A stretch of 64,000 bases of DNA from Carcharhinus amblyrhynchos (lineage: Eukaryota). The position numbers and the translations under genes were made by a program. The stretch spans positions 19,034,001-19,098,000 of the forward strand of contig OZ336879.1 of NCBI GenBank assembly GCA_965287045.1, read 5' to 3'. Under the pieces are notes generated by a model. It was given only the letters and a program-made list of their open reading frames with translations. It had not been told where the DNA came from and did not search any database. This document shows, piece after piece, positions 4,915-62,287 of the stretch (the stretch's first letter is position 1; each line of letters begins with the position of its first letter).

Positions 4915-5119
4915 CACAGTAGGAAGTCTCACAACATCAGGTTAACGTCCAACAAGTTTATTTGATAGTAAACCCACAAGCTTTCAGAAATGGTGTTCAA
5001 GGAGCAAGGTTTCTGAAAGCTTGTGGGTTTATTATCAAATAAACTTGTTGGACTTTAACCTGGTGTTGTGAGACTTCTTACTGTGTTTACCCCAGTCCAA
5101 CGCCAGCATCTCCACATCA
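4915..5119. mobile_element. Fold-back Penelope-like mini-element, family A
   Basis: Inverted arms (cacagtaggaagtctcacaacatcagg...aagctttcagaaa / tttctgaaagctt...cctggtgttgtgagacttcttactgtg); 12-bp TSD tttaatttttaa at 4903-4914 and 5120-5131. Confidence 0.8.
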
Positions 5120-6655
5120 TTTAATTTTTAATCCCTACTTCATGGGAAAATCATTAGTTTAGCCTTCCAACTCCATATTTATATCTGGATTCCCATAACT
5201 CCATGTTTATAGCTTCATTCCTTCAGATTACTTTTATCCCAGGGTACATAGTGGGCAGGTAATGTTTAGACATGATTCCAATCGTTCATTCCAGGTGCTA
5301 ACACTTGAGTAACTATTGCCAGTGAAGCATCATCACCTGTGTCAAACATTAGCAAATTCCATCTGTTAATCCTTCATATGATGAAAAAGCTCAGACACAA
5401 ACTTGTGGCTCATTGCGGAAGCTTTACATCAACCTCAGTGTGGGAGACAGTATGAAGGCCAGGAGGTAACAGGCTTTGACTTGGTGGTCTATGTCCACCA
5501 GGAATTTTAGACAGACATTTGATGCCAGGTGATGACAAGTCGGCTAGTAATAGATGTTATGAAGTGAGGAGTGGGGGTGAAAGGATGGGAGGGAGTGGGG
5601 GTGAAAAGGTGGGGGGAAGGAAGTGGGTGAGGGGAGGGGGGGTGTGGGTGCACAGTGGGGGGGGTGAAAAGGGGCCAGCTGGTCAAAGGGTGCCAGAGAT
5701 GGACTTGGTGACAGTACAAACTAAAAGTAGGACATAAGGCGCCAAATTGGATCATGGCAGAGGAAGCCCAGAAACTTTAATAAAACTGAAATAAAAAGTC
5801 ATTGAAACTTAAACAAATTTAAAATGAAACTTTTAAATTGAAATGGGAAGAAAGCTTGAAGGCAATTGAAAGCAGATAGGCACCAGGAGAGGAATGGAAG
5901 TTAGTAAAGCATAATAAATTTAAAATAAAACTCATAAATTTTAAATAAATAACTTACCTGCAGGGAACATGGTAGCCCAGAGAAGTTTAAAAGTTAAAAA
6001 TACATGTAAAGTTTAAATAAAATTTACCTTCAGTAGTGATTCTTAGAGACAAAGCTCGGAGGCTGCCACAGTGAGACTAAGCATGGAGAAGATTGGATGC
6101 CATGGAAACAGATCCTACAATTCATTATGCAGAAAAGAATAACAGAGAATGTGCCAGGCTGTGTCTGATAACCCTCATGGTCTTCCTCTAGCACTGATCC
6201 TGTCAGATGCCAGCTTTCCCTGGCAACTTTCATATCAAACATTATCCTGTGATACCCAATTAAAATAAACTGGTGTCTGATGAAGTCTTTCAGACCCTGA
6301 CATTGTCACATGAGCCCATCTGTGCCAGGCAGCCACAACCTGGGTGTTAAAATAGAGGAGGGGCGGGTGCGGGGGCAGCGTCACGGATGCAGGTTAAAAT
6401 TAGTCAAAAGTGATGAAGGTATTCAAACAATGAGAGTAATAAGTTAAACATACTTCAGGCAATTTTCAACCTTTTCCTGAATAAAATTTTGCTTATTATC
6501 GCCAACAGCGAGTCCCACTGAGCTCAAGTCCACAATAGGTTAAATGTCGATATTTGCAGAATTCCATTAACCGTCACATACATCTTAAAGGTACAGTTTC
6601 AGAATCCTCATTTATCACATAGCTTGCAGGGCATGAGCACACATGGAAAAATTGT

Positions 6656-7133
6656 GGGTGGAATTCAACCATGGGGGATTAAATCCTGTGGCAGGCATAG
6701 GTACAAGGAATGTTTCCCACTACAGAGCCAATGAAAAATCCCACAGTATCTCCATCCCTCTATGAAGCTGCGATCCTGAGAATAAGCATTCCCTGAATGC
6801 TGCAGCGTACAAAATATCCATGTGGTTTAATCAGTGTTGTGCACAATGTCCAACTGTCCATTTGGTGGAGGCCTCCACCTTCACATTGGATCCCTGCAAG
6901 CAGCCCAAAATCATCTTAAAATAAGTCCCGATTTTTGCACGTCACTTTGGTCCAGACATGTTCTAGACGGGAGTTATTTCCCATTGGCATCATGTACGAT
7001 CAGGCATGGGTCGTAATAGATAATCCTACTGTCATTTCACATCGGCATGAAACTGATTTTTGGACCTCCTGTCAAAATCTCCCTTCCGGACCACCATTAA
7101 ACCTACAGACGGGGGATTGGGAGAATTCCATCC
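6656..7133. mobile_element. Non-autonomous TIR element (PIF/Harbinger-like MITE)
   Basis: Ends gggtggaattcaacc ... gggagaattccatcc are inverted repeats; no coding capacity. Confidence 0.65.
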
Positions 7134-7869
7134 TGAGGCTTATACTTCTCAAATGCATTTCTGTGACATGAAACATGCATTGTAAGGGCTTGGAAATTCT
7201 ATCATCAGATGTGTTCCTTAACAAGTTACCTCTGATAAACAACATCGGTTTGCAGTTATAGACATTGATCCAGAAATGATCATCAAAAAGAATATCATAT
7301 GTGTTAGCATGCTATTGATAATTTGCAAGTATTACTTGAGAAGTGTTCATGCTTATAAAACATTTATAAGCATAAACTGCTTAAAATTGTGTGCATTTAA
7401 AGAGTGATTTTTGCTCCTGTTTTTTGCTCAAACCTATTTGCTTACTTACCACTAAAAATAAAATCTTTCATGAATTAACATAATCAGGCAATGTCTTAGC
7501 TTTGTTTTTCTTTTAAATTTAAATTGAAAAGGATTCCAAGAGTGACAGTCTGGTGTAGATTTACTAACACAACCAAAAATGAGTTTAATAAGAAAAGAAA
7601 ACACTTTTAATTAAGAGTGTCTTCTTCAGCATCTATTATTAACCCAATTTAAATAACTCAAAATGATTCGAAGAAGTTGTCTGCTGTCTGTTCATATTAG
7701 TGCGCAGAAATCAGTTTCTTGGTATGTTGAAACAAACTTTTAAAATGTGCCTGCTAATGTGTCTCTGCACCCAAAAGAAGCTCAATTTTACACCTCTCCT
7801 CCTGAAAAGGCTTTCAAATGAGTACAATTAGTGAAAATTGGTCATGATGATTCATTCAGTGGGAGTTGA

Positions 7870-8600
7870 CTATGTTGTGGCAATGATACTCGGCTAGTAA
7901 TTCAGCTAGCCCTACGCTTAGAAACAAGTCTAAATCCCGCCTTGGTAGAAATTTAAATTCAATTAATTTAATCTGGAGCTGAAAACTAATTTTGATAATG
8001 GTGACAATGAAACTATCACTGATGGAGCGACAGAGGTTGAGGGGAGACCTAATAGAAGTCTACAAGATTATGAGAGGCATGGACAGAGTGGATGATCAGA
8101 AGCTGATGGAAGGGTCAATTACTGGGGGACATAGGTTTAAGGTGCAAGGGGTAAGGTTTAAATGAGATGTGCGAGGCAGATTTTTACACAGAGTAGGGAG
8201 TGCCTGGAACTTGTTGCCTGGGGAGGTAGTGGAAGCGGATATAGTGGTGACTTTTAAGAGGCGTCTTAATAAGTACATGAATAGGATGGGAATAGAGGGA
8301 TATGGTCCCCGGGATTGTAGGAGATTTTAGTTAAGTTGGGCAGCATGGTTGGTGCAGGCTTGGAGGACCGAAGGGGCTGTTCCTGTGCTGTAATTTTCTT
8401 TGTTCTTTATCCTTTCACTAATTCAAAGACGGGAATATGCCTTTTTAGCCAAATGTAACTCCAGATCTGCAGTAATAGGGTTGACTTTTAACTGCTGTCT
8501 GAAATGACTTGGTAAGCCGTAAGGTTCAAAGGCAATTGGGGATGGGTAATACATTCCAGCCTTGCTAATGATGCCTGCACCCCATAAATCAATATTTTAG
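7870..8600 (+). mobile_element. tRNA-derived SINE family B, split by a CR1 3' fragment (8020-8410)
   Basis: Head and tail match the 55480-55820 copy. The insert encodes the CR1 RT C-terminus (RLRGDLIEVYKIMRGMDRVD) and ends in ttctttgttcttt. Confidence 0.75.
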
Positions 8601-8799
8601 AAAACTGGGAAATATGGCCTGCTTTGTGAGCAGCTCCTTCTTCTAGTTGGATGGCGATAGGCTAACTGGCGGATTGAATTTGTGCCTGAAATTCCCCAAA
8701 TCAGCTGACATGGCTGACTTCAAGGTGAATTGAACTGTAAGAAAAAATGCACAAGCCATCGGAAACTGCAGCCCAATGATCTCAGTGTGAATTCCGGCC

Positions 8800-9097
8800 A
8801 GCAGAATTTTCTACTTTCTTTCCAGAGTGTCAACTTGGGTGGGCAAAGTGTGTGTAGCACTGCCAGCTATTCCCACTGAATCCTTGGACACTCTGAAGAA
8901 AAATCCTGGTGGCAGATCCCACAAAATCATGCTGGTGGCTCTGAATAACCTTTTATGGCAGGATCTCATGGGGAGGTGATGTGCAACCTGAGCAGGAAAC
9001 AATGCTGGCCCAAAAGACATTTAGTGGCCCCCGTTGGATTCTCCGACCCCACCCACTTTCTCGTCTATCGAAAATGGGTGTGGAGAATCCCAGCCCG
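8800..9097. mobile_element. MITE-like element
   Basis: Imperfect TIRs cagcagaattttc / gagaatcccagccc, same terminal style as other MITEs here. Confidence 0.5.
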
Positions 9098-9515
9098 AGT
9101 CTATTTGAAGCTTTAATGAATGTTTCATATCAATGTGAAACTACTGTCAAAGTAAATGATTTATTCCAATAAGCTAGGAATGTTTTTAATTGTATGCTGA
9201 ATCAACCTATTGCACTCTTATCTGGAATAGCTTTAGGCAGTTAGAAATATTAAAATTTCGAAATAAGTTTGCCTTGGCTTCAAAAAATTCTTGGCAAGAA
9301 TACCAGATAGTGGCATCAGTGACGATTCCAGGATATTGGGCTGCTGAAGAGGCCATTCTTGAAGAAAAGAAACTTCTGATGTTTATGATTCATTCGTGCG
9401 AATTCTGGAGGCACAGGCATTGTATAAATCAATAAGTTATTCATTCAATTGTGGAAACACTTCGAGGATTACAGAGAGTGAATTTAATTAATCTCAAGGG
9501 ATTTGGGGAAATTAA

Positions 9516-9651
9516 TGGCCAAAATTCTCTCACCTTGCCCACCATGGGAATCGTTGCAGGCGAGACAGGAAGTTCAGTGGACCAGTTAAAGGTCCATTGA
9601 GCTCGGGCAGGAATTCTGGCCTTTTGGTTTGCGAGGCCGGAAAATCCCAGC
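9516..9651. mobile_element. Short MITE
   Basis: TIRs ggccaaaattctc / gaaaatcccagcc. Confidence 0.55.
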
Positions 9652-10247
9652 CGGTGATTCTTTTTCACCCACGAAGTATTTGGTCCTTCAAGTGCTTGGG
9701 GGTGGGGGGGGGGGTGCGGTGGAGATTCTCCCAAGTGCATCCTCCTCCATCCTTTACCTATTATGGTCGTTCTATCATTTAATAAATTCCTACATCAAAA
9801 GCTGTTCAGGAATTGGGTCAAAGATCACAAGTTATAGGTGAAGAAGGTTAAATCCTCCACGGGAACCAATCTGTGTTAATAAAACCAAGAAAACTCTGCA
9901 ACATGGAAGGTTGGGGAAAAAAGTAACCATATATCCAATCACCCTAGTATCAACTGAAGTGTTATCATAGGAGAAGAAAGTCCTATGGGCACAATCTCAT
10001 TGGAATTGGAAATCTCTACCGTTTGTCTATTTACATTTGATTCATTCATTTCTCTTGTCTTTCAACATTCATATCAAAGTTCAGAAATTGTTTTCAGTAA
10101 AGCTTTCAGTCACCTGCTGTTCAGGGCTCGCTCCCAGGTTGAAGATCTGCAACAACTGGGTGATTATAATCTTGAGTCTGCTATAGCTGGCATGGACAAT
10201 AAATTGTGAAATCAAAATAGTGATATATTTTATGCTGCATTTGTCAG

Positions 10248-10361
10248 ACCGGTGAGCAACATTTGGAAGGTGATGCTGTGAGACAAAATATGATTTTCAG
10301 CGAAATACGAAAGCAACTGAGTGAATTGCATGCGCAGCCTAATAGGTCTTCTGCCATTTGA
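10248..10361 (+). CDS. Weak candidate terminal exon (TGEQHLEGDAVRQNMIFSEIRKQLSELHAQPNRSSAI*)
   Basis: Acceptor gctgcatttgtcAG, 37 codons to TGA, several retained CpGs; no upstream partner exon identified. Confidence 0.2.
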   Translation, partial: TGEQHLEGDAVRQNMIFSEIRKQLSELHAQPNRSSAI

Positions 10362-10445
10362 TGTTTTATTTAAACTGTTTTTGTTCTTCCTCTCTATGTT
10401 AAGCGGAGGTAGAAAAATATGAATGTGCAGATACATGGATTTGGG

Positions 10446-10703
10446 CCTGTGTCTGTGGGAGTTTGCGCATTCTCCCTGTGGTTGCGTGGGTTTCCTCCGG
10501 GCGCTCCGGTTTCCTCCCACACCCCAAAGATGTGCTCTTAGGCTGATTGGTTTACCAAATTGGCACTATTCTCCCCTGAATCTGGCTAAGTTAGGGGTTC
10601 CACTCGTAGAAACGCAGGGTAGAATAGGTGTAGGAGGATGCGGCGGCGCGGGCTCGTTGGGCCGAAGGGCCTGTTTCCCGTGCTGGGTTGTTCTTTGTTC
10701 TTT
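10446..10703 (+). mobile_element. 5'-truncated, CpG-rich V-SINE variant
   Basis: V-domain core without tRNA head, divergent spacer, CR1-type tail gggccgaagggcctgtttcc...gttctttgttctttg. Confidence 0.8.
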
Positions 10704-11044
10704 GATTAAAGGTTCGCCCATTTGAATCGATGGGTGAATTAATTTGGTTGAGATGGCACCATGATGGGCTGCACTGAAGAACAATAAATTGCTGGAGAAA
10801 ATAGACCTGAATGTGTGAGAGCAAAATAAAATTTAACAAGGTACTGCCTGATGCGATTCTACCTGACAACATGATTCTATGCAATACTCTACAGCATGTG
10901 ATGTAGCTTCTTCCTCCAGCAGTTTAATAAAATGCCATTCAACCACTTGAGACTTTACTGAAAAACTGAAGTTGTAGAGGTAAAGTAGGAATGCAAGGAT
11001 CCCAATGCAAGGATCTATTTTGATGCTACTGACATTTTAACATT

Positions 11045-12466
11045 GGGCCCGATTTTACCAAAAATTTGCACCTGAAATCACAGTAAATTCAGGTGTGGGC
11101 CCTGCAACGCGATCTGCACCCGAAACTGGGCAGATCGCTCCTTTACCGACACCTGATTTGGGCATGAATTAAATTGACTTAATGAGCCACGCGCCCAATT
11201 GTACCGCCAAACCCCACTTCACCATCTTCGGACCCGTTCTGGACCTGTGCTGCGATCCACCTACAGAATCTAAATCCGAAGCAAATTCCTATTCTCCTCG
11301 AACACCCTTCGCAGACCCCTCGCTAACCAACCCGGCAGAGCTGCACCCCTCCCCTACCCAACCGCAGTCAGACCCCCCTGGGAGGCAGGCCCCTCCCCCG
11401 GCAGACCTCCAACCACACCCCCCCCGGCAGACCTCCAACCCCCCCCCGCCCAGGCGATCGGACGCCCCTGGGAGGCAGGCCACTCTCGGCAGAGCACACC
11501 CCCAACCTACCTGGATTGCTGCTGTCCCTCCACCATCCTTCTGACCTGCACTCAATGTGGAGATGCCAGCGCTGGACTGGGGTCAACACAGTAAGAAGTC
11601 TCACAACTTGGTGTTGTGAGACTTCTTACTGCACTCGTTGAAGAGCCTGCAGCACCTCCCGGGCCTTCCGCTGGCGTCTGCCGGAGTTTGGGGGGGGGGG
11701 GGGGGTTGGTGGTGAGCAGGCTCAGATGGGTCTCTGCTTGGGGGTGGGGGGGGGGTGGAGATTCTCCCAAGTGCATCCTCCTCCATCCTTTACCACCCCC
11801 CAGAGTTCCATCTGAGCCCGCCCCCCCACCCCCTTCCGGCAGACGCCAGCAGAAGGCCAGGAAGGTGCTACAGGATATCCAACAACTGCAGTAAGGAGTC
11901 TCACAACACCACCCCAACAGGACTTTAACCTGGTGTCATGAGGCTTCTTACTTTGTTCGCCCCAGCCCACCATCAGCGTCTCCACATCAATGAGTGCAGG
12001 TCAGAAGGGTGGTGGAGGGACAGCAGAAATCAAGGTAGGTTGGAGGTGTGCTCTGCCAAGGACGGGGCCTGCCGCCCGGGAGGTGGTGGGGGCGGGAAGG
12101 AACGGGAGAGTGGTCTGCTGGGGAGCTGTCTCCCAGGGGTGTCTGATTGTGGGGTGGGGTGGGGGTTCTAATCAGGGGCGGGGGGGGCGGTTGCTGCCTC
12201 CCAGGGGTGTCTGATTGTGGCTCATCCCCTCGCAGCTCTCTCTGGTTTTGTCTTTCGTGCCTGGATGAGCTGTTTCAGGTTTTCTTTCAAACTATGCATG
12301 CACAGTTCAGATCTCCAATCGTTCCGGTAGCACTAAGCCCCACCCCACAGCGCAGACCAGACCAGAGCTGGCAGAAAGTGGACGGGCGCGCTGGAACGAG
12401 GATTCCAGGCTCGGATCCGTTTTACATCCGGATCCGACACAGCCTCCGATTGGTAAAACCTGGTCC
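11045..12466. mobile_element. Large PIF/Harbinger-type non-autonomous element with internal inverted arms
   Basis: TIRs gggcccgattttacca / tggtaaaacctggtcc; 3-bp ATT on both sides (11042-11044, 12467-12469); C-rich arm about 11360-11700 is mirrored by G-rich arm about 11820-12215. Confidence 0.75.
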
Positions 12467-12909
12467 ATTATGTGCAAATTAAAACAAAAAAATAATTTGA
12501 TTGATCACTTTTTTTATTAATACGATGTCCCTTATTTAATATCAGTTTTTCTATTATCATTTCCAGTGGTAGTTCTTTTTTACCATAAAACTATTCCAAT
12601 TAACAACTGAGAGTTGAGAAGGAGGGATGCTGAGATGTCCACAGAAAGAAAATGAGAAGTGAGAGGAACATTGGTTCTATCATTAATAATAGTAACTCAT
12701 TGAAATTGCAATGATAACTAGTAGTAGTCCTGGCAACACACAGCCTCCCTCACATTAACAGTAATGTAATAAATTACTGATCGTCTCTAAATAATGCATA
12801 ATAATAATTGAAATGCACCTGTGTCCTACCTATAACTAGTAATAATTTTTTAACCCACTAATATTCATCTGAAAACTGGAACCTGAATTCCCCTGCATTT
12901 GACAGAGTA

Positions 12910-25808: not shown

Positions 25809-27400
25809 TGTTGTAATATACATTTAAGGGAGCTCGGCGTGACATTAGAAGGGAAATGTGTCACATGATCCAGCCTTAGTTTCACTTTTGCTTTTAACGG
25901 AGTACAGACACATTTCTGAGGCCTTTAAACTTTATATCCAAGTATAACTGTTCTCAGAAAATGCTGGAAAATTTCCACAGGTCTGACAGCATCTGTTGAG
26001 AGAGAATAAAGGCAACATTCTGAGTCTGGATGACCCTAAGTTAGGTCTCTGACAAAGGGTCATCTAGACTTAAAACATTAGCACCATTCTGTCTCCATAG
26101 ATGTTGTCAGACCCACTGAGATTTTCCAGCATTATCTGTTTTTGTTTCAGATTCCAGCTGTTCTCATGTCCCTAGTCTTAATAAATTTACCCACGACGTA
26201 TAGCATGATTGGTGTTTGTGTCTTGGACAGTAAAAATATCAGGAATTGTATTATCATAATATATACAATGTGATGATCAGCAGTGGTCAGAGAGGTGGCA
26301 GCAAGATTAAGTACAGGCACCACGAGGTGAACAGCTTTCAAAAGTGCTATGTGACAAGAGAAAACCCTTACATTTGCTCAGACTGCAACAAAGTTGCAGC
26401 ATTGGCGAGTATTAAAAATGCAATTTTGTGATTATGAAGAAGAACGATAGAGTCATATTGCTGAGCTCGTGCTCAAGAGCTGGGAAGCAGAGCTCCTGGA
26501 GATGTTGAAGCACAAAGCTTGCCATTTCGGTGAGTGGGAAAATAATATTGAGCACTGGGTTAGCTCAGTTGGAAAAGGTAAGTGACCAGGGGTGGGCAGG
26601 TCAATAGGACATAAGAGTAGTGAGAGTCAAACAAAAGGTCATAAAAATCAGGCCCATGAAGATTACAGCTACATTGAGTTGCCTTAAAAGTTTCTAAATA
26701 TTAATTGAATAAAAAGTAAAGACATCATTACTCCATGGTGCAATTCTGCCACAACCCATTTTCATAGGTGGAGCTTAAGAAAAACACCTGGAAGTGGCTA
26801 CAAGGACACTCATCCCAAATGTTGCAGAAGAAAGATATTCAAAGAAATATTGTCAGGATGCTCTCAAAATGCCACAATTTGAACTGGAATGCAGCTGACT
26901 TGCTATCGAAATTCTAAGTGTTTAAACAGCATAAAAGCTATGGTTTGTTGATTCAAGCTGTAGAATTTCATCTAACAATTGAGAATGAAGGTTAACACAG
27001 ACTGAATGCAAGAAGAGCTAACGAGTCTTCAAAAGATATGGACTACATTGCAAGACTGGATCAGAATCAGCTTAAAACTTCTGCATTCATTGGCTAGCGT
27101 CCATATCATTTTGACAAAAGCCTACAGTGCCCATAAACCACTTCATCAGCAGATGCAGATAAAGGATGCACGCTGTGATTTTTCAAACGCAGAGATAACA
27201 AACAGAGCTGTTGAGTTGATAATTACATCCAGTCCCATGGAAGCACTCCAAAGGCGATCTGCTAGACAAGCACAAAATGGATTGCATCAACGAGCTACTC
27301 AAGGAGGCACATAAACACAAAGAAATTCTCGCAGGACAACAAAGCTCACAGGCCCTAAGAACAACTATAATTGTTGACACACTCAAATTGGCTGCCAGCT
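25809..27400 (+). mobile_element. Gypsy-type LTR retrotransposon remnant (5' LTR + gag)
   Basis: TG start (tgttgtaatata), AATAAA near 26180, PBS-like tggcagcaag about 26296; gag-like WNAADLLSKF*VFKQ and HFISRCR...CDFSNAEITNRAVELII. Confidence 0.6.
25956..26157. mobile_element. Fold-back Penelope-like mini-element, family B
   Basis: Arm about 25956-26037 is the inverted copy of about 26056-26140; 8-bp TSD ctgttctc (25948-25955, 26158-26165). Confidence 0.75.
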
Positions 27401-38112: not shown

Positions 38113-38260
38113 AAAATAAAAGCAACAGACTGCAGACATTGGAATCTGAAACAAAAACAGAAAATGGTGGAAAATCTCAGCAGGTCTGACAGCATCTCTG
38201 GGGAAAGAATAGAGCCAACATTTTGAGTTTAGGTGACACCGAAGGGTCATTTAGACTCAA
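38113..38260 (-). mobile_element. Penelope-like family B end
   Basis: Reverse copy of the 26056-26157 arm, plus a short fold-back (gaagggtcatttagactcaaaa). Confidence 0.7.
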
Positions 38261-38849: not shown

Positions 38850-41800
38850 ACTATGAACAGGCAGAAGGCATTCTGAAGGGAGAGGGTGAACAGCCAGATG
38901 TTATGGTACAAATTGGTACTAACAACATAGGTAGGAAGAGTGATGAGGCCCTGTAACAGCAGTTTAGGGAATTAGGTAGAAAGTTAAAAAGCAGGACCTT
39001 TAGGGTTGTAATCTCAGGATTACTCCCTGTGCCATGTGCTAGTGAGGCTCAGAATAGGAAGATAGTCCCACTCAACACAAGGCTAAATAGCTGGTGTAAG
39101 AGGGAGGTTTTCAGACATCTGGACCGTTAGGGTCTCTTCTGGGGCAGGTAAGACCTCTACAAGAAGGATAGGTTGCATCTAAAACTGGAAGGGCACAAAT
39201 ATTCTTGAGGTTTGCTAGTGTCACAAGGGAGGATTTAAACTACTTTGGCAAGGCGTTGGGAACCAAAGCAAAGGTGAATTAGCTGAAGGGGAATCAGAAA
39301 GTAGGGCCAGTAAGACTCACCCAAGAAAGAGCAGGCAGAGTGTGGTTGCTAATCAAAGATGGGCTGGTGGACTGAAGTGCCTTTATTTCAATGCTAGAAG
39401 TGTAACAGGTAAAGCAGATGTTCTTAGAGCTTGGATTCGTACTAGGAATTATGATGTTGTTGCCATTACAGAGACTTGATTAAGGGAAGAACAGGATTGG
39501 CAGGTTAATATTCCCAAGATACAGATGTTTCAGGCAGGGTACAGATGCATGAAAAAGGGATGGGGGAGTTTCACTATTGGTTAAGGAGAATATCATAGCT
39601 GTACTGCGGGAGGGCACCACGGAGGGCTCATACAATGAGGCAATATGGGTAGAGCTCAGGAATAGGAAGGGTGCAGTCATAATGTTTACTATAGGCTGTC
39701 CAACCGCCAGTTGGAGATAGAGGAATAGGTATATAAGGAGATTTTAGCAAGGTGTAGAAATAATAGGGTTGTTGTGTTGGGAGTTTTAACTTTCCCTATA
39801 TTGACTAGGACTCACTTAATGCTAGGGGCATGGATGGGGTAGAGTTTGTAAGGAGCATCCAGGAGAGCTTCTTGAAATGGTATATAGATAATCCAACTAG
39901 GGAAGAGGCCATACTGGACCTGGTATTGGGGAATGAGCCCAGCCAGATGATTAATGTTTCAGTAGGGGAGCAGTTTGGAAACAGTGACCATAATTCAGTA
40001 AGCTTTAAGGTATTGATGGATAAAGATATGTGTAGTCCTCATGTTAAGATGCTAAACTGGGGCAAGGCTAATTACAAAAATATTAGGCAAGAACTGAAGA
40101 ATGTAGTTTGGGGGCAGATGATTGAGGGCAAATCAACATCTGGCATATGGGAGGCTTTCAAGTGTAAGTTGTAGGGATTCAGGACTGGCACATTCTTGTA
40201 AGGATGAAGGATAAGTATGGCAAGTTTTGGGAACCTTGGGTAATGAGAGATATTGTGAGCCTAGTCAAAGGGAGGAAGGAAGCAATGTCAAGGCTAGGAG
40301 GCTGGAAACACATGAAGCAAGTGTGAAATACAAGGAAAGTAGAAATAAACTTAAGCAAGGAATAAGGAGGGCTAAAAGGGGCCATGAAAAAGCATTGGCC
40401 AGCAAGATTAAGAAAAATCCCAAGGATTTTTACACATATATAAAGAGCAAGAGGGTAGCCAGAGACAGGATTGGCCCACTCAAGGGCAGAGGGGGGAATC
40501 TATACGTGGAGCCAGAGGAAATGAACGTAGTATTAAATGAGTGCTTTGCATCAGTATTCACCAAGGAGAAGGACTTGGTGGGTGATAAACCTGGGGAAGA
40601 GTGTGTAGATCGTTTGAGTCAAGTTGAGATCAAAAAGGAAGAGGTATTGGGGTTCTTGAGAAACATCAAGGTAGATAAGTCCTCAGGGCTTGATGGGATA
40701 TACTCCAGAATACTGAGAGAGGCAACGGAGGAAATTACTGGGGCCTTGAGAGAAATCTTTGTATCCTCACTGGCTACAGGAGAGGTCAACACAGTAAAGA
40801 GTCTGACAGCACCAGGTTTAAGTCCAACCGATTTATTTGATAGACTCACTGGGGCTTTACTGTCTACTAGTGAGTCTACTATCAAATAAATCGGTTGGAC
40901 TTAAACCTGGTGTTGTCAGACTTTTTACTGTGTTTACCCCAGTCCAACACCGGCATATCCACTACAGGAGAGGTCCCAGAGGATTGCAGAATAGTCAATG
41001 TTTTTCCTTTGTTTAAGAAGGATAGCAAGAATAATCCAGGTAATTACAGGCCAATGAGCCTTACATCAGTTGTAGGGAAATTATTCGAGAGGACTCCTTG
41101 AGATAGAATTTATTCCCACTTGGAAATAAGTGGATGTATTAGCGAGAGACAACATGGTTTTGTGAAGGGGAGGTCATCCCTCACTAACTTGATTGAGTTT
41201 TTCAAGGAAGTGGCAAAGATGATTGATGAGGGTAGGGCAGTGGATGTTGTCAACATGGACTTTAGTAAGGCCCTTGACAAGGTCCCTCATGACAAACTGG
41301 TGCAGAAGAAGTCGCATGGGATCAGAGGTGAGCTGGCAAGGTGGATAAAGAACTGCCTTGGTCATAGAAGATAAGGGTAGCAGTGGAAGGATGCATTTCT
41401 GAATGGAGGGCTCTGACAAGTGGCATTCCTCAGGGATCAATGCTGGGACCCTTGCTGTTTGCAATATATATATATGATTTGGAGGAAAATGTGACTGGTT
41501 TGGTTAGTACGTTTGCAGATGACACAAAAATTGGTGGATTTGCGGATCGCAATGAGGACCATCAGAGAATACAGCAGGACATAGATTGGTTGGAGACTTG
41601 GGTGGAGAGATGGCAGATGAGTTTAATCTGGACAAATGTGAAGTAATGCACTTTGGAAGGTCTAATACAGATAAGAAATATACAGTAAATGGCAAAACCC
41701 AAAAGAGTATTGATAGGCAGAGGGATCTGGGTATACAGGTATACAGGTCACTGAAAGTGGCAACACAGGTAGAGAAGGTAGTCAAGGAGGCATACAGCAT

Positions 41801-49400: not shown

Positions 49401-50023
49401 GCCTTGTTCCCCATATATTTGTGTTGGCAATGCAGGCAGAGGTGAAAACAATGTCAGAGGCTTTGACAGCATCATTTGACCTGCTTTCTTTTTTTCATGA
49501 TGCTGCCAGCTATTTCCATCAGGGTTTCCATCTGCTCAAATCACAGTCGAGCTAAAAAAAAAATCAAAATGTGTGGCAGTTCAGTTCTCCACAAGATTTT
49601 AGTCCCAATATCAGTCCAATTGCAGTTGTAAATGGGACAGTGATGAGATGAAAATTGACCTCACAAACTCCAACATCAAATGGTCAAATTTGTTGATGAT
49701 ACCAAAATGGAACGAGATGGAGCACAGATAATCAAACCTATGCAAACAGCTCTAAAATTAGTGTTAGCGCAACAAAGTAACTGTGTTGACAAATGAACAA
49801 AGGGTGATATTTAATGCAGACATCAGTGAACTTCATGTGGGAAATCATGTACACTTGCTCAGATAGATCCAAGGAGCAAAATAAGCAGCACCTATAATCT
49901 GTGAATGTATTGAAACATGTGAGGTGGAAGCAGGCTTGATAGACTTGTCAATGAACATTATCCAAGTGTTTCACAACAACAAACTGCAAAGGTAATATAT
50001 TCACTGACTACATATCTAAAAGT

Positions 50024-50224
50024 GTGGAGATGATGGTGTTGGACTGGGGATGGGCATTGTAAGAAGTCTCACAACACCAGGTTAGAGTCCAACAAGTTTT
50101 TTGGAACTACAAGCTTTTGGGGCGCTGTTCCTTCATCAGGTGAGTGAAACAGCAGCGCTCTGAAAGCTCATGATTGCAAATAAACTTGTTGGACTTTAAC
50201 CTGGTGTTGTGCGACTTCTCACTA
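50024..50224. mobile_element. Fold-back Penelope-like mini-element, family A, retaining hammerhead core
   Basis: Inverted arms; degenerate TSD tacatatctaaaagt / tacatacctaaagt; minus strand cCTGATGAaggaacagcgccccAAAAgctt (about 50140-50111). Confidence 0.85.
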
Positions 50225-50289
50225 TACATACCTAAAGTCATTGAATAGAAATTTCATAAAAATGAAATGTATGTGGTGAGGCCACACAT

Positions 50290-53567: not shown

Positions 53568-53573
53568 TTTATT
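53568..53573 (-). terminator. Candidate polyadenylation signal AATAAA
   Basis: tttatt on the plus strand, downstream of the candidate terminal exon. Confidence 0.3.
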
Positions 53574-53952: not shown

Positions 53953-54695
53953 CTGACATCACAAAAATAAATACATGTCCAGTATTACCTTAGAGATGCT
54001 CTCACAATGACCACAGAGCTCCCTCAGAACCATGATGGGAATGTCCGTTTATCAATGTTAATGAAGTTTACTCTGTATTCAGCGTAAAGTAGCTGTGTGA
54101 AGGATAGGTTCTCAAAAACCTCCCAACAATATTCACTTCCAAAACAGCTCTGAAGAAAGGTCTATAATGAAGGCCACTGATTTAATGCAAACTGAATAAT
54201 TTAAATCCATTTTTTAAATTAGATAAATTTTGGGATTTAAGATAGATCTTATTCTGCAATTCAGTTTGTTCCTCTGTGTAAACTGCAATCTAATGATCTC
54301 ATATATGACACACAAAATGAAATAATTAGATGTGTAGAGGGACATTACTGCAGCTGTTATTCAAGGGAAAAACAGGAAGAAATCTCACTGAAATTACGGA
54401 TGAAGCAATGTAAAAATTGGACAATAAGATAAATCATAGAAGCAGCAACTGAACTTTTAAACATCTCCCAAAGTCAATTGGAATTTTTCTGCATTGCCTG
54501 AGGTGGAATTTTAATAACAATAGTAGCAACATCTGCTTATATAAAATAAAACATCCCATGCTGTTTCGCAGCAGCATGATAAAGCAAACTTTGACACTGA
54601 GCTACATAAAGAGATATTAATGCAGACGGCCAAAAGCTTAGTCAAAACCTATGTTTTAGTGAGTTACTGAAAAAACAAAAGAGATTTAGTAAACA

Positions 54696-55013
54696 TGGCA
54701 AGGTGGCACAGTGGTTAGCACTGCTGTCTCACAGAGCCAGAGACCCAGGTTCAATTCCCAGCTTGGTTCACAGATTGTATGGAGTTTTCATGTTCTCCCC
54801 GTATCTTTGTGGGTTTCTGCCAGGCGGTCCAGTTTCCTCCCACAGCCCAAAGACGTGCGGGTTAGGTGGATCGGCCATGCTAAATTGCCTTTAGTGTCAG
54901 AAGGTTGAGCTAGGGTAAATGCATGGGGTTATGGGGATAGGGCCTGGGTGGGATTGTGATTGGTGCAGACTCGATGGGCCAACTGGCCTCCTTCTGGACT
55001 GTAGAATTCTATG
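54696..55013 (+). mobile_element. HE1 V-SINE
   Basis: Complete head, core and tail. Confidence 0.92.
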
Positions 55014-55137
55014 AGGGGGAGAGGTTTGAGGAAAGAATGTCAATGCTGAGAGCCTGGGCAACTGAAAATATATCACCAGTGATGGAGTGATTAAAATTGG
55101 GAATGTACCAGAGGCCAAATCAGAGATGAGCAGGTAT

Positions 55138-55340
55138 CATAGAATCCTTACAATACAGAACTAGTCCATTTGGTCCATTGAGTCTGCACCAACTCTCCTA
55201 CAGAGCCTCTTGCCAAGGCTCAGCCCACCCCACCCCGTGCTCTATTCACTTAACCTCACACCATTTACTCAACTCATTCCCCTATGCTTGGGACACTAAT
55301 GAGCAATTTGGCATGGCCAATTCCCATAACCTGCACATCG
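55138..55340 (-). mobile_element. HE1-like SINE 3' half
   Basis: catagaatcc tail ... ggcatggccaattcccataacctgcacatc. Confidence 0.7.
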
Positions 55341-55479
55341 TTGATATCTTAGAGGGATGTAGGCTGGAGGAAGTCACAGAGATAAGAAAAGGCAAGAACG
55401 GGTAAACCTGGATGACATGTTCTTTATGGTGCAGTCAGTTAATGGCCTCTTTCTGCACTGTAGAGATTCTTTGATGCTA

Positions 55480-55820
55480 TGTGACAGCCTAGATATATTG
55501 TCACTAGACTATTAATCCAGAAATTCAGCTCATATTCTGGGGACCCATGTTCGAATCCCACCATGGCAGATGATGGAATTTTAATTCAGTAAAAAACATC
55601 TGTAATTAAGAATCTACTGATGACCATGAAACCATTGTTGATTGTTGGAAAAACCCATATGGTTCACTAATGTCCTTTAGGGATGGAGATCTGTTGTCCT
55701 TACCTGGTCTGGCCTATATGTGACTCCGGCAACGTGGTCTCAACTGTCCTTGGGCAACTAGGGATCGGCAATAAATGCTGACCAGCCAGTGACGCCGTGT
55801 CCCACAAATGAATGAAAAAA
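55480..55820 (+). mobile_element. SINE family B, near complete
   Basis: B box atgttcgaatccc, core ggttcactaatgtcctttaggga, tail gcaataaatgctgaccagccagtgacgcc...atgaatgaaaaaa. Confidence 0.85.
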
Positions 55821-56989
55821 TGGTAACTGACTCAGGCAGAGAAGGCAATTCTGCCACTGCCTCCAAGCCTGCAGCACGTAACAGAATGAGGAAAACAGGG
55901 AAGACAACTTCTGCCAGGAGTGATGGAGCAAGCAGAAAAAAAGAGTCAGAGGAGGAACATGAGGAAGCAGGGAAGAGGCATCTTGGACCCCAAATAACTA
56001 GACAGCGTAAAAAATAATGGATTGTGAGCTTCCGGTTCCACTAAATAAAATATACCCATCTCAACCTGGACCTAAATCATCGCCCTCACATTCATTTCAC
56101 ACTATCCCATCACATACTCATCTTGCTCAATGTCCAGTGTAAGCCAAAGTATTATTTACCCACTCATTTTGCAATCACTTTTTGACAATGTAACCTTTTC
56201 CTTATTTATTTTATATTAATCAAAATGGACTTGTGCTGTAATCCTGTGTGTGTAGAGTCTGTTTCATGCTGATGACATGGAACGTCGAGGTAAAAGGCAT
56301 GAAGACTGAAGACACAAAGAATTATATTAATCGGCATTGCGGACTCAAAACACAAAGTATTATAGTCAATTTAGTCAAGTTTAAGCTTTCCTAGCATCAG
56401 CAAAGATCTACATTATGGGTGGGATTTATTGGCATGTCCTCCAATTCTGAATTCTGTACGATCCCACACAAGGCCACTGGAGAGTGCCGTTCTCTGACCC
56501 TCACCCATCCCTGGAATCAGGGTGGGCATATCGGTAAAATTCTGGCCAATGACTTAAACTGTAGCAGGATCCGTATCAGAAGAAATAAGCATATGGAGTC
56601 TCATGAATAGGCAATAAATGTGTTGCTTTCTGCCAGCTTTGGAGATAGATAACAGTGTTGGAGATAAGAAAGCTGAGTCAAACTGGCTATGGTATTTCAA
56701 GTGTGACCTTTGAATGTGGCCTACCAGGGGACACTGCGAAGGCATAGAAATGGGAACTGATGTAATTGAAACCAATTAAATGGATTAAAAAAGATTTTTC
56801 CTTCTCTGGCACATGCCCATTGCAAAAAAAAATTTGAAGAAAGATCCCACAGAACCATTGGGGCTGCAGTGTTTAAAACAATTTTTCAGTTTGTTCAGAG
56901 AAGGCCCATTGATGAACTAAGCAACTAGTATGGTTATGAGTATTTACTGCTTCCTGGTTTAATAGAGGTGTATCACCTAGCCACACTAA

Positions 56990-58160
56990 CTCTCTGAAAG
57001 ACTGTTCTGCCTAGTCCAACTCCTGCGCCCTATCCACATTATTTTGCAAATCTTTCTTTTCAGATAGCAATCTAATTCCCTGTTGAATGACTTGATCAAA
57101 TATATCTCCATTAACATCTCAAGAAATTCATTCCAGACCCGCTGAGTGAAAAACATTTTCCTCACATCACTTTTATACTTCTTGTAAATTATTTTGAATC
57201 TTTGCTCTCTCATCCAATATGATCTGAGTGGGAACAGCATCTCACTATTTACCCTATCCACATTCCTTAGGATCTTGAAAAGCTCTGTCCAGTTTTCTCA
57301 TAGCCTTTCTCTCCTTCAACCTTTTCAGACTGCTCGAGGAGTCCGTATACCCCTTTGAGCATTGAGGTCTACTCAAGGTGGAAGCTGTCTGGTTCAATAT
57401 GGTGGAATCTAATGATCTCCATCAGGGTCTTCACTGTAGCATTGATATGTTGGAGGATATGTCCTGTTTTCTAGTAGAAGTTGAGACAGTGGCCACCAGT
57501 TATTCCATCAGCAGTGTGTGTCCAACAGTGTTGCCATAGAGTTGAACACCACTCCACAAAAGGACAGGTTCCAAGCTCATATAAAGGATTACATGCACAG
57601 GAAATGGGCCCCAGAAGCAAGGTATATGACCCAACCACTCTATGTCAATGTTTATGCTCCATTCAGTTATTCATCCACTTTCCTTCATCTAAATCTATCA
57701 GCGTAATCTTCCATTCCCTTCTCTGCCTTATGCATTTCTAGCTTTCTCTTGAATGCACCAATATTGTTTGTTTCAATTACTCTCTGTCATCATAAGTTCC
57801 ACACTGTCATCACTCTGTGGTAAATAAATTCCTTCTGAATTCCCAATTGGAATTTTTTTGATGAGTATCTAATACTGATGGCCCATGGTTATGCTGTTCT
57901 CCAATAACTTGGTATCCAATCTATTAACCTTTTCATAATTTTAAAAACCTCTATTAAGTCACTCCAAATCTTTATTTAATGGGATATGACACCTAACCAG
58001 TCAATCACTTCCAGATATGCACGTCCACACATTTCTATTATCATCGTAATTTTTTTCTGCACCTTCTCCAGTGCTTCTAAATATCTGCACACAGCACTCT
58101 TACATTTGGTTTCATCAGGTTTGATACTGATCTAGCATTACATTCCTCCTTTTAACATTG
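56990..58160 (-). mobile_element. CR1 3' fragments (56990-57310 and 57680-58160)
   Basis: ORF 56986-57261 MDRVNSEMLFPL...FFTQRVWNE; second eroded copy. Confidence 0.7.
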
Positions 58161-58163
58161 GAG

Positions 58164-58455
58164 TTAATTGGAGTTGGACACCTCTATGATCCTGCTGAGT
58201 GACAGAAGATTTTCCAGTAGATCTGCCATTGCCTCAAGTATCTCAATGTACATTGCCATTAGCATTCTCCTGCGTACTGCCCAGTCCAGCATTGTTGCCA
58301 CACACAAGATGCCAAACCTCAGGTATTCACCACAAGGATGGCATCCTCCCATTCCCTCTACAGGTTGTACTTTTAAGGCATCTTTGCCATCTGGAGAAAC
58401 CATGCTATCCTGCTAGATTCCACCACAATGAAGAGTTCTGTGTCATTACCCATCA
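58164..58455 (-). pseudogene. Harbinger Myb/SANT partner-gene C-terminal remnant (tentative)
   Basis: AVRRRMLMAMYIEILEAMADLLENLLSLSRIIEVSNSN resembles the helical C-terminal part of such ORFs. Confidence 0.35.
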
Positions 58456-58459
58456 CCCA

Positions 58460-58785
58460 TTGACTTTGTCTATACAGAGCCACAATAATTAAGGAACTCA
58501 CCCAACCCAGACATATTCTCTTCCACCTTCTTCTGTCAGGAAAAAGTCTGAGGACACATAGCAACCAACTCAAGAACAGCTTCTCCCCTGCTGCCATTAG
58601 ATTTTTGAATGGACCTACGTCACATTTAGTTGATCTTTCTCTACACCCTAGCTGTGACTAACACTAGACTCTGCACTGTCTCCTTTCCTTCTCTATGTAC
58701 GGTATCCTCTGTCTGTACAGCACGCAAGAAACAAGACTTTTCACTGTATACCAATACATGTGACAATAATAAATCAAATCAAAAT
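58460..58785 (+). mobile_element. Rex1/Babar-type LINE 3' end
   Basis: NQLKNSFSPAAIRFLNG; tail ttttcactgtataccaatacatgtgacaataataaatcaaatcaaa. Confidence 0.8.
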
Positions 58786-58995
58786 TAAAATGGGGACCCC
58801 TCATCCTTCCAATGATTCAACATGATTTTCCATCAGCCATGAATTTCAGATGCACAGTCTCTCTTTAGTGATCAGAACATCCTTAAGAGGAACAAGTGCC
58901 TAGAATGCACAATGTTGCTGGACTGGCCCCCATCGCAACTGCAGAGGCCAGAGGCAGCATGGAAAACAAAGAGTCTGGATGAGTAAGTCATTTGA

Positions 58996-59068
58996 TGTGG
59001 AGATGCCAGCGTTGGACTGGGGTAAAAACAGAAAGAAGTCTTTAAGCTGGCATTCTGAGACTTCATTC
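58996..59068. mobile_element. Minimal family A insertion
   Basis: tgtggagatgccagcgttggactggggtaaa; 16-bp TSD tgagtaagtcatttga / tgagtaaatcgtttga (58980-58995, 59069-59084). Confidence 0.75.
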
Positions 59069-59238
59069 TGAGTAAATCGTTTGACATAACAGCAGTGTCA
59101 ATCAGATGAGATGGGTGTACAATCATTGCATTCTGCCTGACACAATTTAAATAGATATGGGCAGATTGTGAATTGTAACCCCATGTTGAAAAAGCAGGGC
59201 AGATCAAATTTGACCCCAAAAGGTTGAATACACAATAC

Positions 59239-59313
59239 CGTTTGGATTACACAATACGAGAAGAATCCCTTTAAACTGAAAAATGATGCATCCCGATTTA
59301 CTAATGAAACTTG
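59239..59313 (-). CDS. Weak candidate internal exon (QVSLVNRDASFFSLKGFFSYCVIQT or alternative frame)
   Basis: Strong acceptor tttttttttcAG, donor ACG/GTattg, 75 nt, two frames open. Confidence 0.2.
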
Positions 59314-59744
59314 CTGAAAAAAAAACATTGCTGAATGAAAGCTCATTTAAATCGTTAGTGGAAAGATCTGCGGGCAGTGAAAATACATCAGATGTGTCAT
59401 TAAGTAGGATGTAATTTCAACACTATGTAGTCTTGTCAACAGTTCCTGTTTTAATGCAGCCTCTGAGTATTTTATAATATAGTCTTAAACATAACATTTT
59501 CTGAAACTGCCTCTCATTATGGTAATAACAACTGAAAGTGCAGATTTAGAAGCAATGATGATCTGTCATATTAAGACAAATGGAACACTTTAAGAATGAC
59601 TGGCCAGATGAAATATTATTGCATTGTCAATACCCAATTTCCTGAGGGGAGCGAGAGACAGCTTTGAATGCCCAAAGGGTATCTCAGCATCAAGTGATTA
59701 ACTGATTCAACCATTCAGCTTATGTTGAGTGAGTTAAATTGAGA

Positions 59745-60110
59745 TCATAGAATCATAAAATCATAGAATCCCTACAGTGCAGGAGGCCATTCAGCCCATC
59801 AAGTCTGCACTGACCCTGACAGCACATCTTACCTAGGCACTTGCCCTCGCCCTATCCACATAACCCCAGACATTTACCACGGTCAATCCATGTAACCTAC
59901 ACATCTTGGAACACAAGGTAATTTTAGCATTACCAATCAACCTAAGCTACACATCTTTTAGGGTAAGGGAGTAAACTGGAACACCCGGAGGAAATTCACT
60001 CAGACACAAGGAAAAGGTACAGACTCCACACAGACAGTGACCCAAGGCTGGAATTGAACCCGGATCCCTGACGCTGCGAGGCAGCAGTGCTAACCACTGT
60101 GCTACCGTAC
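59745..60110 (-). mobile_element. HE1 V-SINE
   Basis: Complete reverse copy with (catagaat)n tail. Confidence 0.9.
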
Positions 60111-60259
60111 TGTCCCTGCAAGGCAAGACACAGCCATCAAAAAAAAGATGCAAGTTGCTAGAATGCTGCTTTTCGCAGCTTAGTCTGTTAGTTTTTTATA
60201 GTCCATTTTATATAGTAAAATCTTTTAACCACAAAGTTGGTCTAAGTACAAATGAGGGC

Positions 60260-60660
60260 AACAGGATGTCTAGAACATTGATGAAAGATGGAATTGTTTA
60301 TCTCCTTAAGATTGTGACCTATACCTCCATACAAAAACGAGAATTGAAGATGGAGGATATTGACACAGACAGACAGTCATAGATGACCATGAACTCTCAA
60401 GGTTGACAATACGTAGGGGCAACAGAAGAAGCAAGTAGAAGTGACAAGCTCAGTTGGCTGTGAAGAGAGTCCAGAAAAAACAGAGGGCAGAAAATCTTGC
60501 ACCTTCCCAACCCACTGCCTTCAAGTGCAACAAAGTGGCAGAGTCTGCCATGTCAGAGCAGGGCTCTTGTGTCACGTCAGGCAATGTTTAACACAGAACT
60601 GGCTACCAAGCAGCAAACCATCATCACCTGAGATGGAAGGATGTCAATGAAGACGCATGT
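60260..60660 (+). mobile_element. RTE LINE 3' end
   Basis: C-terminal Cys/His motif FKCNK-GRVCHVRAGLLCHVRQC; tail ccatcatcacctgagatggaaggatg. Confidence 0.65.
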
Positions 60661-60809
60661 CCTTCAGCAATGTGACTTAAGGATGGAGAAATAAACAGGA
60701 CTGAGAAAAGGCGGAATTCTCAAACATTTTTGTTTAATGGTCCTCTTTTCGAATAGAATAATTATCATGGATACCCCACCTAAACTTCAGTATTTTATAA
60801 TACACTTGC

Positions 60810-61760
60810 TATAGCAGGGAGTGCAGTAAAGGATTACCAGGCTGATTCTTGGGATAGCAGGTTTGTCATACGAAGGCAGACTCAGTCAGTTAAAGTTTAA
60901 CTTTTATTTATTAGTCACCAGTGGGCTTACATTAACACTGCAATGAAGTCACTGTGAAAATCATTTAGTCATCAGACTCTGGCACCTCTTCAGGTACACT
61001 GAGGGACAATTTGGCATGGCCAATGCATCTAACTAGCACAACTTTCAGGCAGTGGGAGGAAACCGGAGTACCCTGAGGAAATCCACACAATCACTGAGAG
61101 AACGTGTAGACTCCGCACAGTGAACCCAACGGAATTGAACCCAGCTCCCTGGTGCTGTGAGGCAGCAGTGCTAACCACAATTCTGCCTTGGAATTTAGAA
61201 GAATGAGAGAGAGAATCTCATGTAAAATAATAAAATTTAAACAGAATTAAACAGGGTAGATTCAGAAAGAATGTTCCTGATGGCGGGGGAGTTCAGATCT
61301 AGGGTTCATAGCTTAACAATAAGGGGTAAACATTTTAGGATTGAGATGAGGAGAGATTTCTATCCCCAGAGAGTGGTGAATATGTGGAATTCACTACAAC
61401 ATGAAGTAGCTAAGGCCTAAACATTGTGTGATTTGAAGAAAATTAAATATAATTCTTGGGCTAAAGGGATCAAGGAATATCAGAGCGTAGGGTGGGTGGT
61501 CGGGGATAAGGGATGAGGACATTGTTATTCTGGTTGATCAGCAAATTCAATGAATGGTGGAGCAAGTTTGAAAAAGGGCCAAATGAACTACTTCTGCTCC
61601 TATTTTCTCTCACACCCTTGTGTGGTTGGGGTGTGGAGGTGAGGGGCGGGGGGGGGAGCGTGGAGCGTGGTTTGGGAAAAATATCAGCCACAATTGAATG
61701 GCGGAGAAACTCGATGGACCGGGTGGCCTAATTCTACTCCATGTCTTATGGTCTTATGTG
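60810..61760 (+). mobile_element. CR1 3' fragment containing a minus-strand alternative-tail V-SINE (60905-61180)
   Basis: TRLILGIAGLSYEGRL ... RRDFYPQRVVNMWNSL; SINE insert between them; tail atgtcttatggtcttatg. Confidence 0.85.
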
Positions 61761-62192
61761 CATGGAGGGGTGCAATGCACATTCTTTACCATGACCATGA
61801 AGGGTGAGCGCTAATGTTGACCATCAGTGAGGCCAGCCCTGAATCGTACCCCTGCAGATTCAGTCTCTGGACTTCAGGGGTCTGTGGAGATCAGTCTGAG
61901 AACTAATAACTTAGCCTGGGTGAATTAAATGCTAAAATCAGGTATATCTGTCCTGTTCTCCTTGTACCTACTCCCATCAGGAAGTCTGTTGTCATGTTAT
62001 GGCATGCTCACCTGATTTGTCATGTCCTCACACATCCACTGCAGCATGCCTGCAAACTCCCGATGACATTCATCATCCAAGTATGCTGAGGTCAACGCCT
62101 CTTTCTGCTGTCCGGCACTTTACCCTCTAGAAGGGATCTCTATGACTTTACAGTTGGGGCCAAAAAGCTGAAAGCCTGCCTGTAGTAATTCA

Positions 62193-62287
62193 TGATTTGG
62201 AGATGCCAGGGTAAACACAGTAAGAAGTCTCACAACACCAGGTTAAAGTCCATCAGGTTGTGCTTCCAAATAAACGTCTTACTACGA
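62193..62287. mobile_element. Truncated family A insertion
   Basis: ggagatgcc...aacacagtaagaagtctcacaacaccaggttaaagtcc; 9-bp TSD agtaattca (62184-62192, 62288-62296). Confidence 0.8.

What the first reader, a model, noticed from the sequence alone, without database searches (positions are those of the whole stretch)
4915..62287. Family of 70-200 bp fold-back insertions with long TSDs and a minimal hammerhead core (Penelope-derived, retrozyme-like mini-elements)
Seen: at least seven copies (4915, 11556, 11888, 40788, 50024, 58996, 62193) share the terminus gtggagatgcc..ttggactggggtaaacacagtaagaagtctcacaacaccaggttaaagtccaac. Most fold back on themselves with variable loop points. Five have TSDs of variable length (12, 14, about 14, 16 and 9 bp), which fits retrotransposition rather than cut-and-paste. 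Established: Penelope-like elements carry minimal hammerhead ribozymes in their terminal repeats and often insert with an inverted 5' copy of the 3' end. Inference: these are extreme, non-coding products of that mechanism and may propagate as a SINE-like hairpin RNA family.
Basis: partly seen in the sequence, partly recalled or inferred. Interest (0 to 1): 0.7.

Follow-up and report, generated by a model that had tools for sequence, protein, structure and literature searches.

The report
Fold-back stubs of a Penelope retroelement
These short mirror-image repeats are cut-short insertions of a very abundant Penelope-type jumping gene, laid down in a pattern already described for that class; they are likely dead ends rather than a family that copies itself, and two of the seven were carried here inside an unrelated element that is likely a DNA transposon.

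Summary
The seven fold-backs are real. They are the 3' end (pseudo-LTR plus ~35-bp tail) of a Neptune-type Penelope-like element: the same terminus follows RT + GIY-YIG frames in this genome and two variants have 5,133 and 4,674 exact hits. Among 178 sampled loci, 117 show tail arm + inverted arm, from about 86 bp to 2.9 kb, with a ~12-bp TSD in 96 (control 8 of 1,500), the same in short and long copies. Junctions mostly differ; recurring ones sit on microhomologies and cross subfamilies. So no SINE-like or retrozyme family is supported. None of the seven window copies has an intact hammerhead core. Copies 11556 and 11888 are one old insertion carried in both arms of a 1.4-kb TIR element with 3-bp TSD. 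Both arms share hypervariable markers and stop preferentially at one pLTR position (483 vs 69 hits), which fits two-ended priming on one RNA (inferred). The layout is in print, and this scan has reported it many times in this and other genomes.

The parts
4915..5119 (+). Fold-back stub 1: tail-less inverted arm, junction inside hammerhead stem II, sense arm ending in the tail; TSD 4903-4914 / 5120-5131 (12 bp)
   Evidence: no CUGANGA box
11045..12466 (.). 1,422-bp non-coding element with ~16-bp terminal inverted repeats and a 3-bp TSD (11042-11044 / 12467-12469); inner palindrome 11467-12080 carries stubs 2 and 3. Likely a non-autonomous DNA transposon; Harbinger-like in TIR and TSD length only
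   Evidence: 11 of 15 distinct two-ended copies have an exact 3-bp TSD, the other 4 differ at one base
11554..11628 (-). Fold-back stub 2, centre shortened relative to its siblings; passenger in the left arm of the TIR element; 8 bp of TSD left (11546-11553 / 11629-11636)
11892..11988 (+). Fold-back stub 3, the same ancestral insertion as stub 2, in the right arm of the TIR element; decayed 12-bp TSD (11880-11891 / 11989-12000, read by eye)
40788..40961 (+). Fold-back stub 4, second subfamily; both arms end within 3 nt of the predicted ribozyme cut; exact 14-bp TSD (40774-40787 / 40962-40975)
50022..50224 (-). Fold-back stub 5; TSD 50009-50020 / 50225-50236 (12 bp, 1 mismatch); predicted to fold into one long hairpin
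   Evidence: z -13
50107..50144 (-). Decayed minimal hammerhead in stub 5: CUGANGA box and stem II present, GAAA box mutated
58996..59068 (-). Fold-back stub 6, shortest and most decayed; possible 16-bp TSD with 2 mismatches (58980-58995 / 59069-59084)
62193..62287 (-). Stub 7: tail arm with a deletion, short and internally deleted return arm; exact 9-bp TSD (62184-62192 / 62288-62296)

Best explanation
The fold-backs are extremely 5'-truncated, head-to-head insertions of the 3' end of an endonuclease-bearing, Neptune-type Penelope-like element, each likely made once from the parent's RNA and likely unable to copy itself further. Shown: link to RT + GIY-YIG frames, a tail that ends at the ORF's start codon, ~12-bp TSD, continuous lengths. 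Inferred mechanism: the protein nicks both strands about 12 nt apart; both DNA ends prime reverse transcription on the same RNA (or RNA of one source locus) at two start sites about 35 nt apart; both cDNAs stop early, often at one position just upstream of the ribozyme that is likely the RNA's 5' end; the two cDNA ends are joined by microhomology or short templated patches.
For: 13 of 20 loci picked for long frames have a >=300-aa frame ending in the same C-terminus, with the terminus starting 250-262 bp after the stop. RVT_1 E 8.6e-10 above cut-off; GIY-YIG E 3e-4, just below cut-off; Cys-rich linker between them. Tail abuts the ATG in tandem copy L064 and extends up to 17 nt into the ORF start in some copies. 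117 of 178 loci are tail + inverted arm; TSD in 96 of 117 vs 8 of 1,500 shuffled pairs; median 12 bp in both <=300-bp (68 of 81) and longer (28 of 36) copies, p 0.96. Arms carry the same stem II variant in 22 of 23 (other copies 28%) and 7 of 11 (4.5%). The tail-less arm is longer in 49 of 89, the tail arm in 24, so simple copying of the tail arm cannot make most of them. 30 of 89 junctions overlap by microhomology. Arms stop at +45 from the ribozyme cut 483 times vs 69 at +54 (about 84 after correction), and 30 of 30 inspected are true ends. In vitro, an anole PLE cleaves and extends both strands and starts RT at two adjacent internal sites (PMC11167929, parts 1-2 of the text read). De novo PLE insertions of median 128 bp are reported (PMC9977147, passage).
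Against: Arm concordance is also what later arm-to-arm conversion would give. Arm lengths are correlated (rho 0.68, n 111), which later central deletion of palindromes would also give, and siblings of one insertion inside the TIR element do have remodelled loops. The +45 stop lies 21-23 nt from a TATA-like box, shorter than the usual spacing (recalled), and 10 of 30 such ends use a 3-nt microhomology that could favour them. 61 of 178 loci did not fit the complete layout (truncated loci, nested insertions, single arms; not resolved one by one). The sample is the first listed exact hits on one contig, so biased to young copies.
Confidence: 0.88

Rival explanations
1. The stubs were born as longer palindromes and collapsed later by central deletion, with arm-to-arm conversion keeping the arms alike; origin is still Penelope.
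Against: The younger subfamily has as many short copies as the older (44 of 59 vs 37 of 58 at <=300 bp); arm-arm identity does not track length (rho -0.01 and -0.28, not significant); a fixed stop at +45 with many partners is not expected from random collapse.
Confidence: 0.2
2. Snap-back: one cDNA folds on itself (or an antisense RNA self-primes, as proposed in PMC3846280) and the second arm is copied from the first.
For: Arms share variants; short templated patches at junctions; PMC3846280 discussion passage.
Against: In 49 of 89 the tail-less arm is the longer one, and it lacks the tail, so neither arm can be a full copy of the other without a return to RNA or a later deletion.
Confidence: 0.2
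3. A SINE-like or retrozyme-like hairpin RNA family that is transcribed and re-inserted by the Penelope protein.
For: One junction recurs: 10 of 30 inspected +45 ends, 'AC' after the stop in about 4 of 10 listed hits; a second recurs in 12 of the first 50 loci (read by eye).
Against: Those copies differ in stem II, have the tail on either arm and all 9 TSDs found differ; same-junction pairs cross subfamilies; no tandem units; 0 of 7 window copies have an intact core; a stub lacks the ORF start beyond the tail, which the anole protein needs in vitro (PMC11167929); a hairpin is predicted to trap the ribozyme. A family above ~10% of tail-bearing copies would very likely have shown in the sample; a rare one is not excluded.
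Confidence: 0.05
4. MITEs of a DNA transposon.
For: Hairpin shape; two window copies did move inside a TIR element.
Against: Ends are asymmetric by ~35 bp, TSDs are 9-18 bp and variable, and the sequence continues into RT + GIY-YIG frames.
Confidence: 0.01

Closest known systems
Insertion units of endonuclease-positive Penelope-like elements: inverted 5'-truncated copy, pLTR, one-sided 30-40-bp tail, TSD (PMC8557442 passages; PMC3846280 passages; PMC2377424 passages)
   Same: Head-to-head arms, tail on one end only, 8-10-bp TSDs in rotifer vs 9-18 here, partial tandems, microhomology junctions.
   Different: Here most units have lost the whole ORF (81 of 117 complete units are <=300 bp) and copy number is very high; the passages read give no statistics on arm ends.
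Neptune clade of PLEs (PMC8557442 passage)
   Same: RT, Cys-rich linker, C-terminal GIY-YIG in one frame.
   Different: No tree was built; Nematis shares the linker. That vertebrate families with the linker are Neptune is recalled.
Minimal hammerheads of metazoan PLE pLTRs (PMC4209133, parts 1-2 read)
   Same: In parent copies: core boxes, extra base before stem II, variable stem II, palindromic bases in place of helix III, 4-6-bp stem I. The paper already notes motif pairs 100-700 bp apart on opposite strands and ascribes single motifs to truncated PLEs.
   Different: The window copies have lost or never received the core.
Non-LTR retrozymes (10.64898/2026.07.22.740005, parts 1-2 read)
   Same: Non-coding, hammerhead-related, derived from PLE pLTRs.
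   Different: Defined there as tandem repeats with a complete ribozyme in at least two consecutive units; these are inverted, single and mostly ribozyme-less.
PIF/Harbinger non-autonomous DNA transposons (for 11045-12466; PMC3014272 passage)
   Same: TIR of 14-25 bp and 3-bp TSD.
   Different: TSD is AT-rich but TTA/TAA in only 1 of 11; no transposase partner was sought.

Membership tests
EN+ Penelope-like element (parent) | Single ORF with RT and C-terminal GIY-YIG | tested here: met
   (GIY-YIG 21.4 bits, just under Pfam's 22.6); longest frames 668-693 aa lack the N-terminus
EN+ Penelope-like element (parent) | pLTR formed by partial tandem, terminus both after and before the ORF | tested here: met
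   L064
EN+ Penelope-like element (insertions) | Inverted 5'-truncated copy plus 30-40-bp one-sided tail | tested here: met
EN+ Penelope-like element (insertions) | Variable-length TSD | tested here: met
   96 of 117, 9-18 bp, control 8 of 1,500
EN+ Penelope-like element (parent) | Minimal hammerhead in the pLTR | tested here: met
   195 intact cores in fetched loci (overlaps not removed), 91 stem II variants; stems >=5 bp in 26 of 91 vs 12% of chimeras, a modest margin; stems I and II predicted (z -1.7). Cleavage not tested
Neptune clade | Zn-finger-like linker between RT and EN | tested here: met
Neptune clade | RT phylogeny | not tested
   no reference PLE proteins fetched
Non-LTR retrozyme | Tandem units, each with a complete type I hammerhead | tested here: not met
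Non-LTR retrozyme | Abundant circular RNA | not testable with these tools
   only contigs of runs not on record as RNA were offered
SINE-like non-autonomous family | Copies descend from a fixed master (same junction, same markers, different flanks) | tested here: not met
MITE (for the stubs) | Symmetric TIR ends and fixed short TSD | tested here: not met
PIF/Harbinger (for 11045-12466) | TIR 14-25 bp and 3-bp TSD | tested here: met
   11 of 15 exact
PIF/Harbinger (for 11045-12466) | TSD sequence TTA/TAA | tested here: not met
   1 of 11 (criterion)
PIF/Harbinger (for 11045-12466) | Autonomous partner with matching TIRs | not tested

The most novel reading that the evidence does not exclude
The stubs are a genome-wide fossil record of two-ended target-primed reverse transcription: one RNA, two start sites 35 nt apart, a 12-nt stagger, and two cDNAs that run off the 5' end of the element's own pLTR-started transcript, so the +45 stop maps that RNA end and explains why a Penelope family makes mostly stubs. 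A bolder add-on, that a second class was copied from hammerhead-cleaved RNA (in vivo proof of cleavage), got only weak support (about 0.15).
Probability: 0.45. Interest if true: 0.5.

Novelty: new member of a known kind. Interest (0 to 1): 0.24.

Why it matters
As a class it is ordinary: known layout, known ribozyme, and found repeatedly by this scan. Its use is statistical. How Penelope-like elements build their inverted ends is still open in the papers read (PMC8557442, PMC11167929, PMC3846280), and a genome with thousands of young stubs lets arm ends, start sites and stagger be counted directly. It also warns annotators: these hairpins mimic MITEs, miRNA precursors (sub-threshold Rfam hits) and retrozymes, and one stub was amplified passively inside a TIR element.

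Tried and rejected
DNA search of the genome with the 82-bp terminus returned nothing because common words are skipped; no information. Rfam: no hammerhead family hit at E <= 1, only sub-threshold miRNA-type matches. No solved structure matches the ORF at E <= 0.01. Hammerhead-cut hypothesis: in 89 short palindromes the longer arm ended at -6..+2 of the predicted cut in 20 and at +3..+11 in 1 (noticed after seeing the data). Genome-wide counts were 68, 161 and 44 at 0, +2 and +4, about 225, 200 and 95 after dividing by chance factors of my own, so only about a twofold drop; and the partner arm was short in 10 of 23 at 0 but 15 of 23 at +4 (by eye). A sharp edge is not confirmed. The count at -2 was swamped by a subfamily variant and dropped. 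Searches used a looser end-mapping that lost copies; one search replaced them. De-duplication dropped 12 of 190 loci by flank similarity; about 5 of these are probably independent insertions into the same repeat or tandem junctions. RNA: no RNA holder listed; four contig sets laid cannot show starts or ends. Loci could not be cut out, so those 69 hits were not inspected. Literature: a search for shark + Penelope + Neptune + transposable element gave 1 unrelated paper; a search for a PLE insertion mechanism since 2022 with 5 of 6 terms gave 0; one search gave 9 listings, only PMC3846280 to the point. Repbase, Dfam and subscription journals were not searchable, so the family may be catalogued; supplements were not read.
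Full report
Observation. Seven related fold-backs lie at the stated places. TSDs are 12 bp (4915), 14 bp (40788), 12 bp with one mismatch (50024), a weak 16 bp (58996) and 9 bp (62193); 11556 keeps 8 bp. None has an intact hammerhead core: only the 50024 copy has the CUGANGA box, with a mutated GAAA box. No ORF piece lies in the window. The genome is 2.9 Gb; its repeats look like those of a cartilaginous fish (recalled, and so called in earlier notes; not tested).

Parent element. Two 40-base variants of the terminus have 5,133 and 4,674 exact hits, reversed controls 0. Six more copies lie in 130 kb beside the window, so the total may be of order 10^5 (rough). Longer copies run into a GIY-YIG-like frame, which has 28,500 first-look candidates. 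Of 20 loci that I picked from the 150 scored for long frames, 13 have a >=300-aa frame ending in the same C-terminus with the terminus starting 250-262 bp behind it. A 668-aa frame holds RT (E 8.6e-10), a Cys-rich linker and GIY-YIG (E 3e-4, just under cut-off): a Neptune-type element by the linker criterion of PMC8557442; no tree was built. In tandem copy L064 the tail ends exactly at the ATG. Parent pLTRs carry a minimal hammerhead with a hypervariable stem II, as described in PMC4209133.

Short and long copies are one series. I took the listed exact hits (100 of 5,133 and 90 of 4,674, all on one contig), dropped 12 with similar flanks, and found tail arm + inverted tail-less arm in 117 of 178; lengths run from about 86 bp to 2.9 kb, 81 at <=300 bp. 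A TSD is present in 96 of 117 against 8 of 1,500 shuffled pairs, median 12 bp in short and long alike. This is the layout given for PLEs in PMC8557442, PMC3846280 and PMC2377424 (passages), and very short new PLE insertions are known (PMC9977147 passage).

No separate hairpin family. Of 4,005 pairs among 90 palindromes <=400 bp, 13 passed a loose filter and about 4 share a junction by eye; these sit on microhomologies and differ in subfamily markers. The commonest junction genome-wide (10 of 30 inspected) occurs with many stem II variants, with the tail on either arm and with 9 different TSDs in the 9 of 11 where one was found. Retrozymes as defined in the 2026 preprint need tandem units with complete ribozymes, which is not met. 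A transcribed stub is predicted to be one long hairpin. The exception is passive: 11556 and 11888 share flanks with each other and with 139 exact hits; they lie in a 1,422-bp element with short TIRs and a 3-bp TSD (11 of 15 distinct two-ended copies exact), and 6 of 15 loci of the smallest hairpin class belong to it. Loops vary among these siblings, so variable loop points alone do not prove separate insertion.

Mechanism (inferred). Both outer ends are element 3' ends, 35 nt apart on the RNA, and both inner ends are truncation points. Arms share the stem II variant (22 of 23 vs 28%; 7 of 11 vs 4.5%). The tail-less arm is longer in 49 of 89, the tail arm in 24, which simple snap-back from the tail arm cannot give without later deletion. 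Junctions show microhomology in 30 of 89 and extra bases in 55, some templated and a few alignment failures. This fits priming from both sides of a ~12-nt staggered cut at the two start sites found in vitro for an anole element that cleaves and extends both strands (PMC11167929). Arms stop at +45 from the ribozyme cut 483 times against 69 at +54, about 84 after correction; 30 of 30 inspected are true ends. Because the start sites lie at the ORF's 5' end and the Drosophila promoter lies in the pLTR (PMC2377424), an RNA begun in the pLTR would yield only ~140 nt of cDNA; +45 is therefore likely the RNA's 5' end, but a splice site, an RT pause or microhomology are not excluded and no raw RNA reads were available. 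A pile-up at the ribozyme cut (20 vs 1) shrank to about twofold genome-wide and failed a partner-arm check. Later collapse and arm conversion remain rivals; against them, the younger subfamily is as short as the older and arm identity does not track length.

Prior work. My reading was set. The scan already holds 11 notes with these words in at least 5 genomes and 22 Penelope notes in this one, several with the same two-ended model (unchecked AI notes). One gave the lead to PMC2377424. The passenger in the TIR element was not among them by my words.

Verdict. Real, Penelope-derived, known in kind; the retrozyme or SINE-like reading is not supported. Confidence 0.88 in the identity, about 0.45 in the detailed mechanism. 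Interest 0.24.

Noticed in passing
window 11045-12466; L161-L190: Family of 1.1-1.9-kb TIR elements with 3-bp TSD and a variable GC-rich inner palindrome that carries one Penelope stub in each arm; 139 exact junction hits, 3 of the first 100 hits.
   Followed up: partly
window 40774-40787; L064, L101, L261: The same site of an abundant LINE-like repeat appears to have been hit independently four times, which suggests a target preference helped by homology to the ORF start.
   Followed up: partly
window 25955-26138 and 38140-38237: A second, unrelated fold-back family with a decayed hammerhead-like centre, possibly another Penelope family (assignment is recalled, not tested).
   Followed up: no
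window 126-463 and about ten more copies: A ~340-bp repeat with a tRNA-like head (ARAGORN hit 120-205), probably a tRNA-derived SINE.
   Followed up: no
window 9693-9758: 66-bp isolated piece 91% like the loop of the TIR element's inner palindrome.
   Followed up: no
L001, L002, L005, L006; L012/L013; L206/L209: Stubs or longer copies multiplied with their flanks by segmental or tandem duplication.
   Followed up: no
window 62255-62287: The return arm of stub 7 starts at the first base after the predicted ribozyme cut and looks like a different subfamily variant from nearby copies (read by eye).
   Followed up: no
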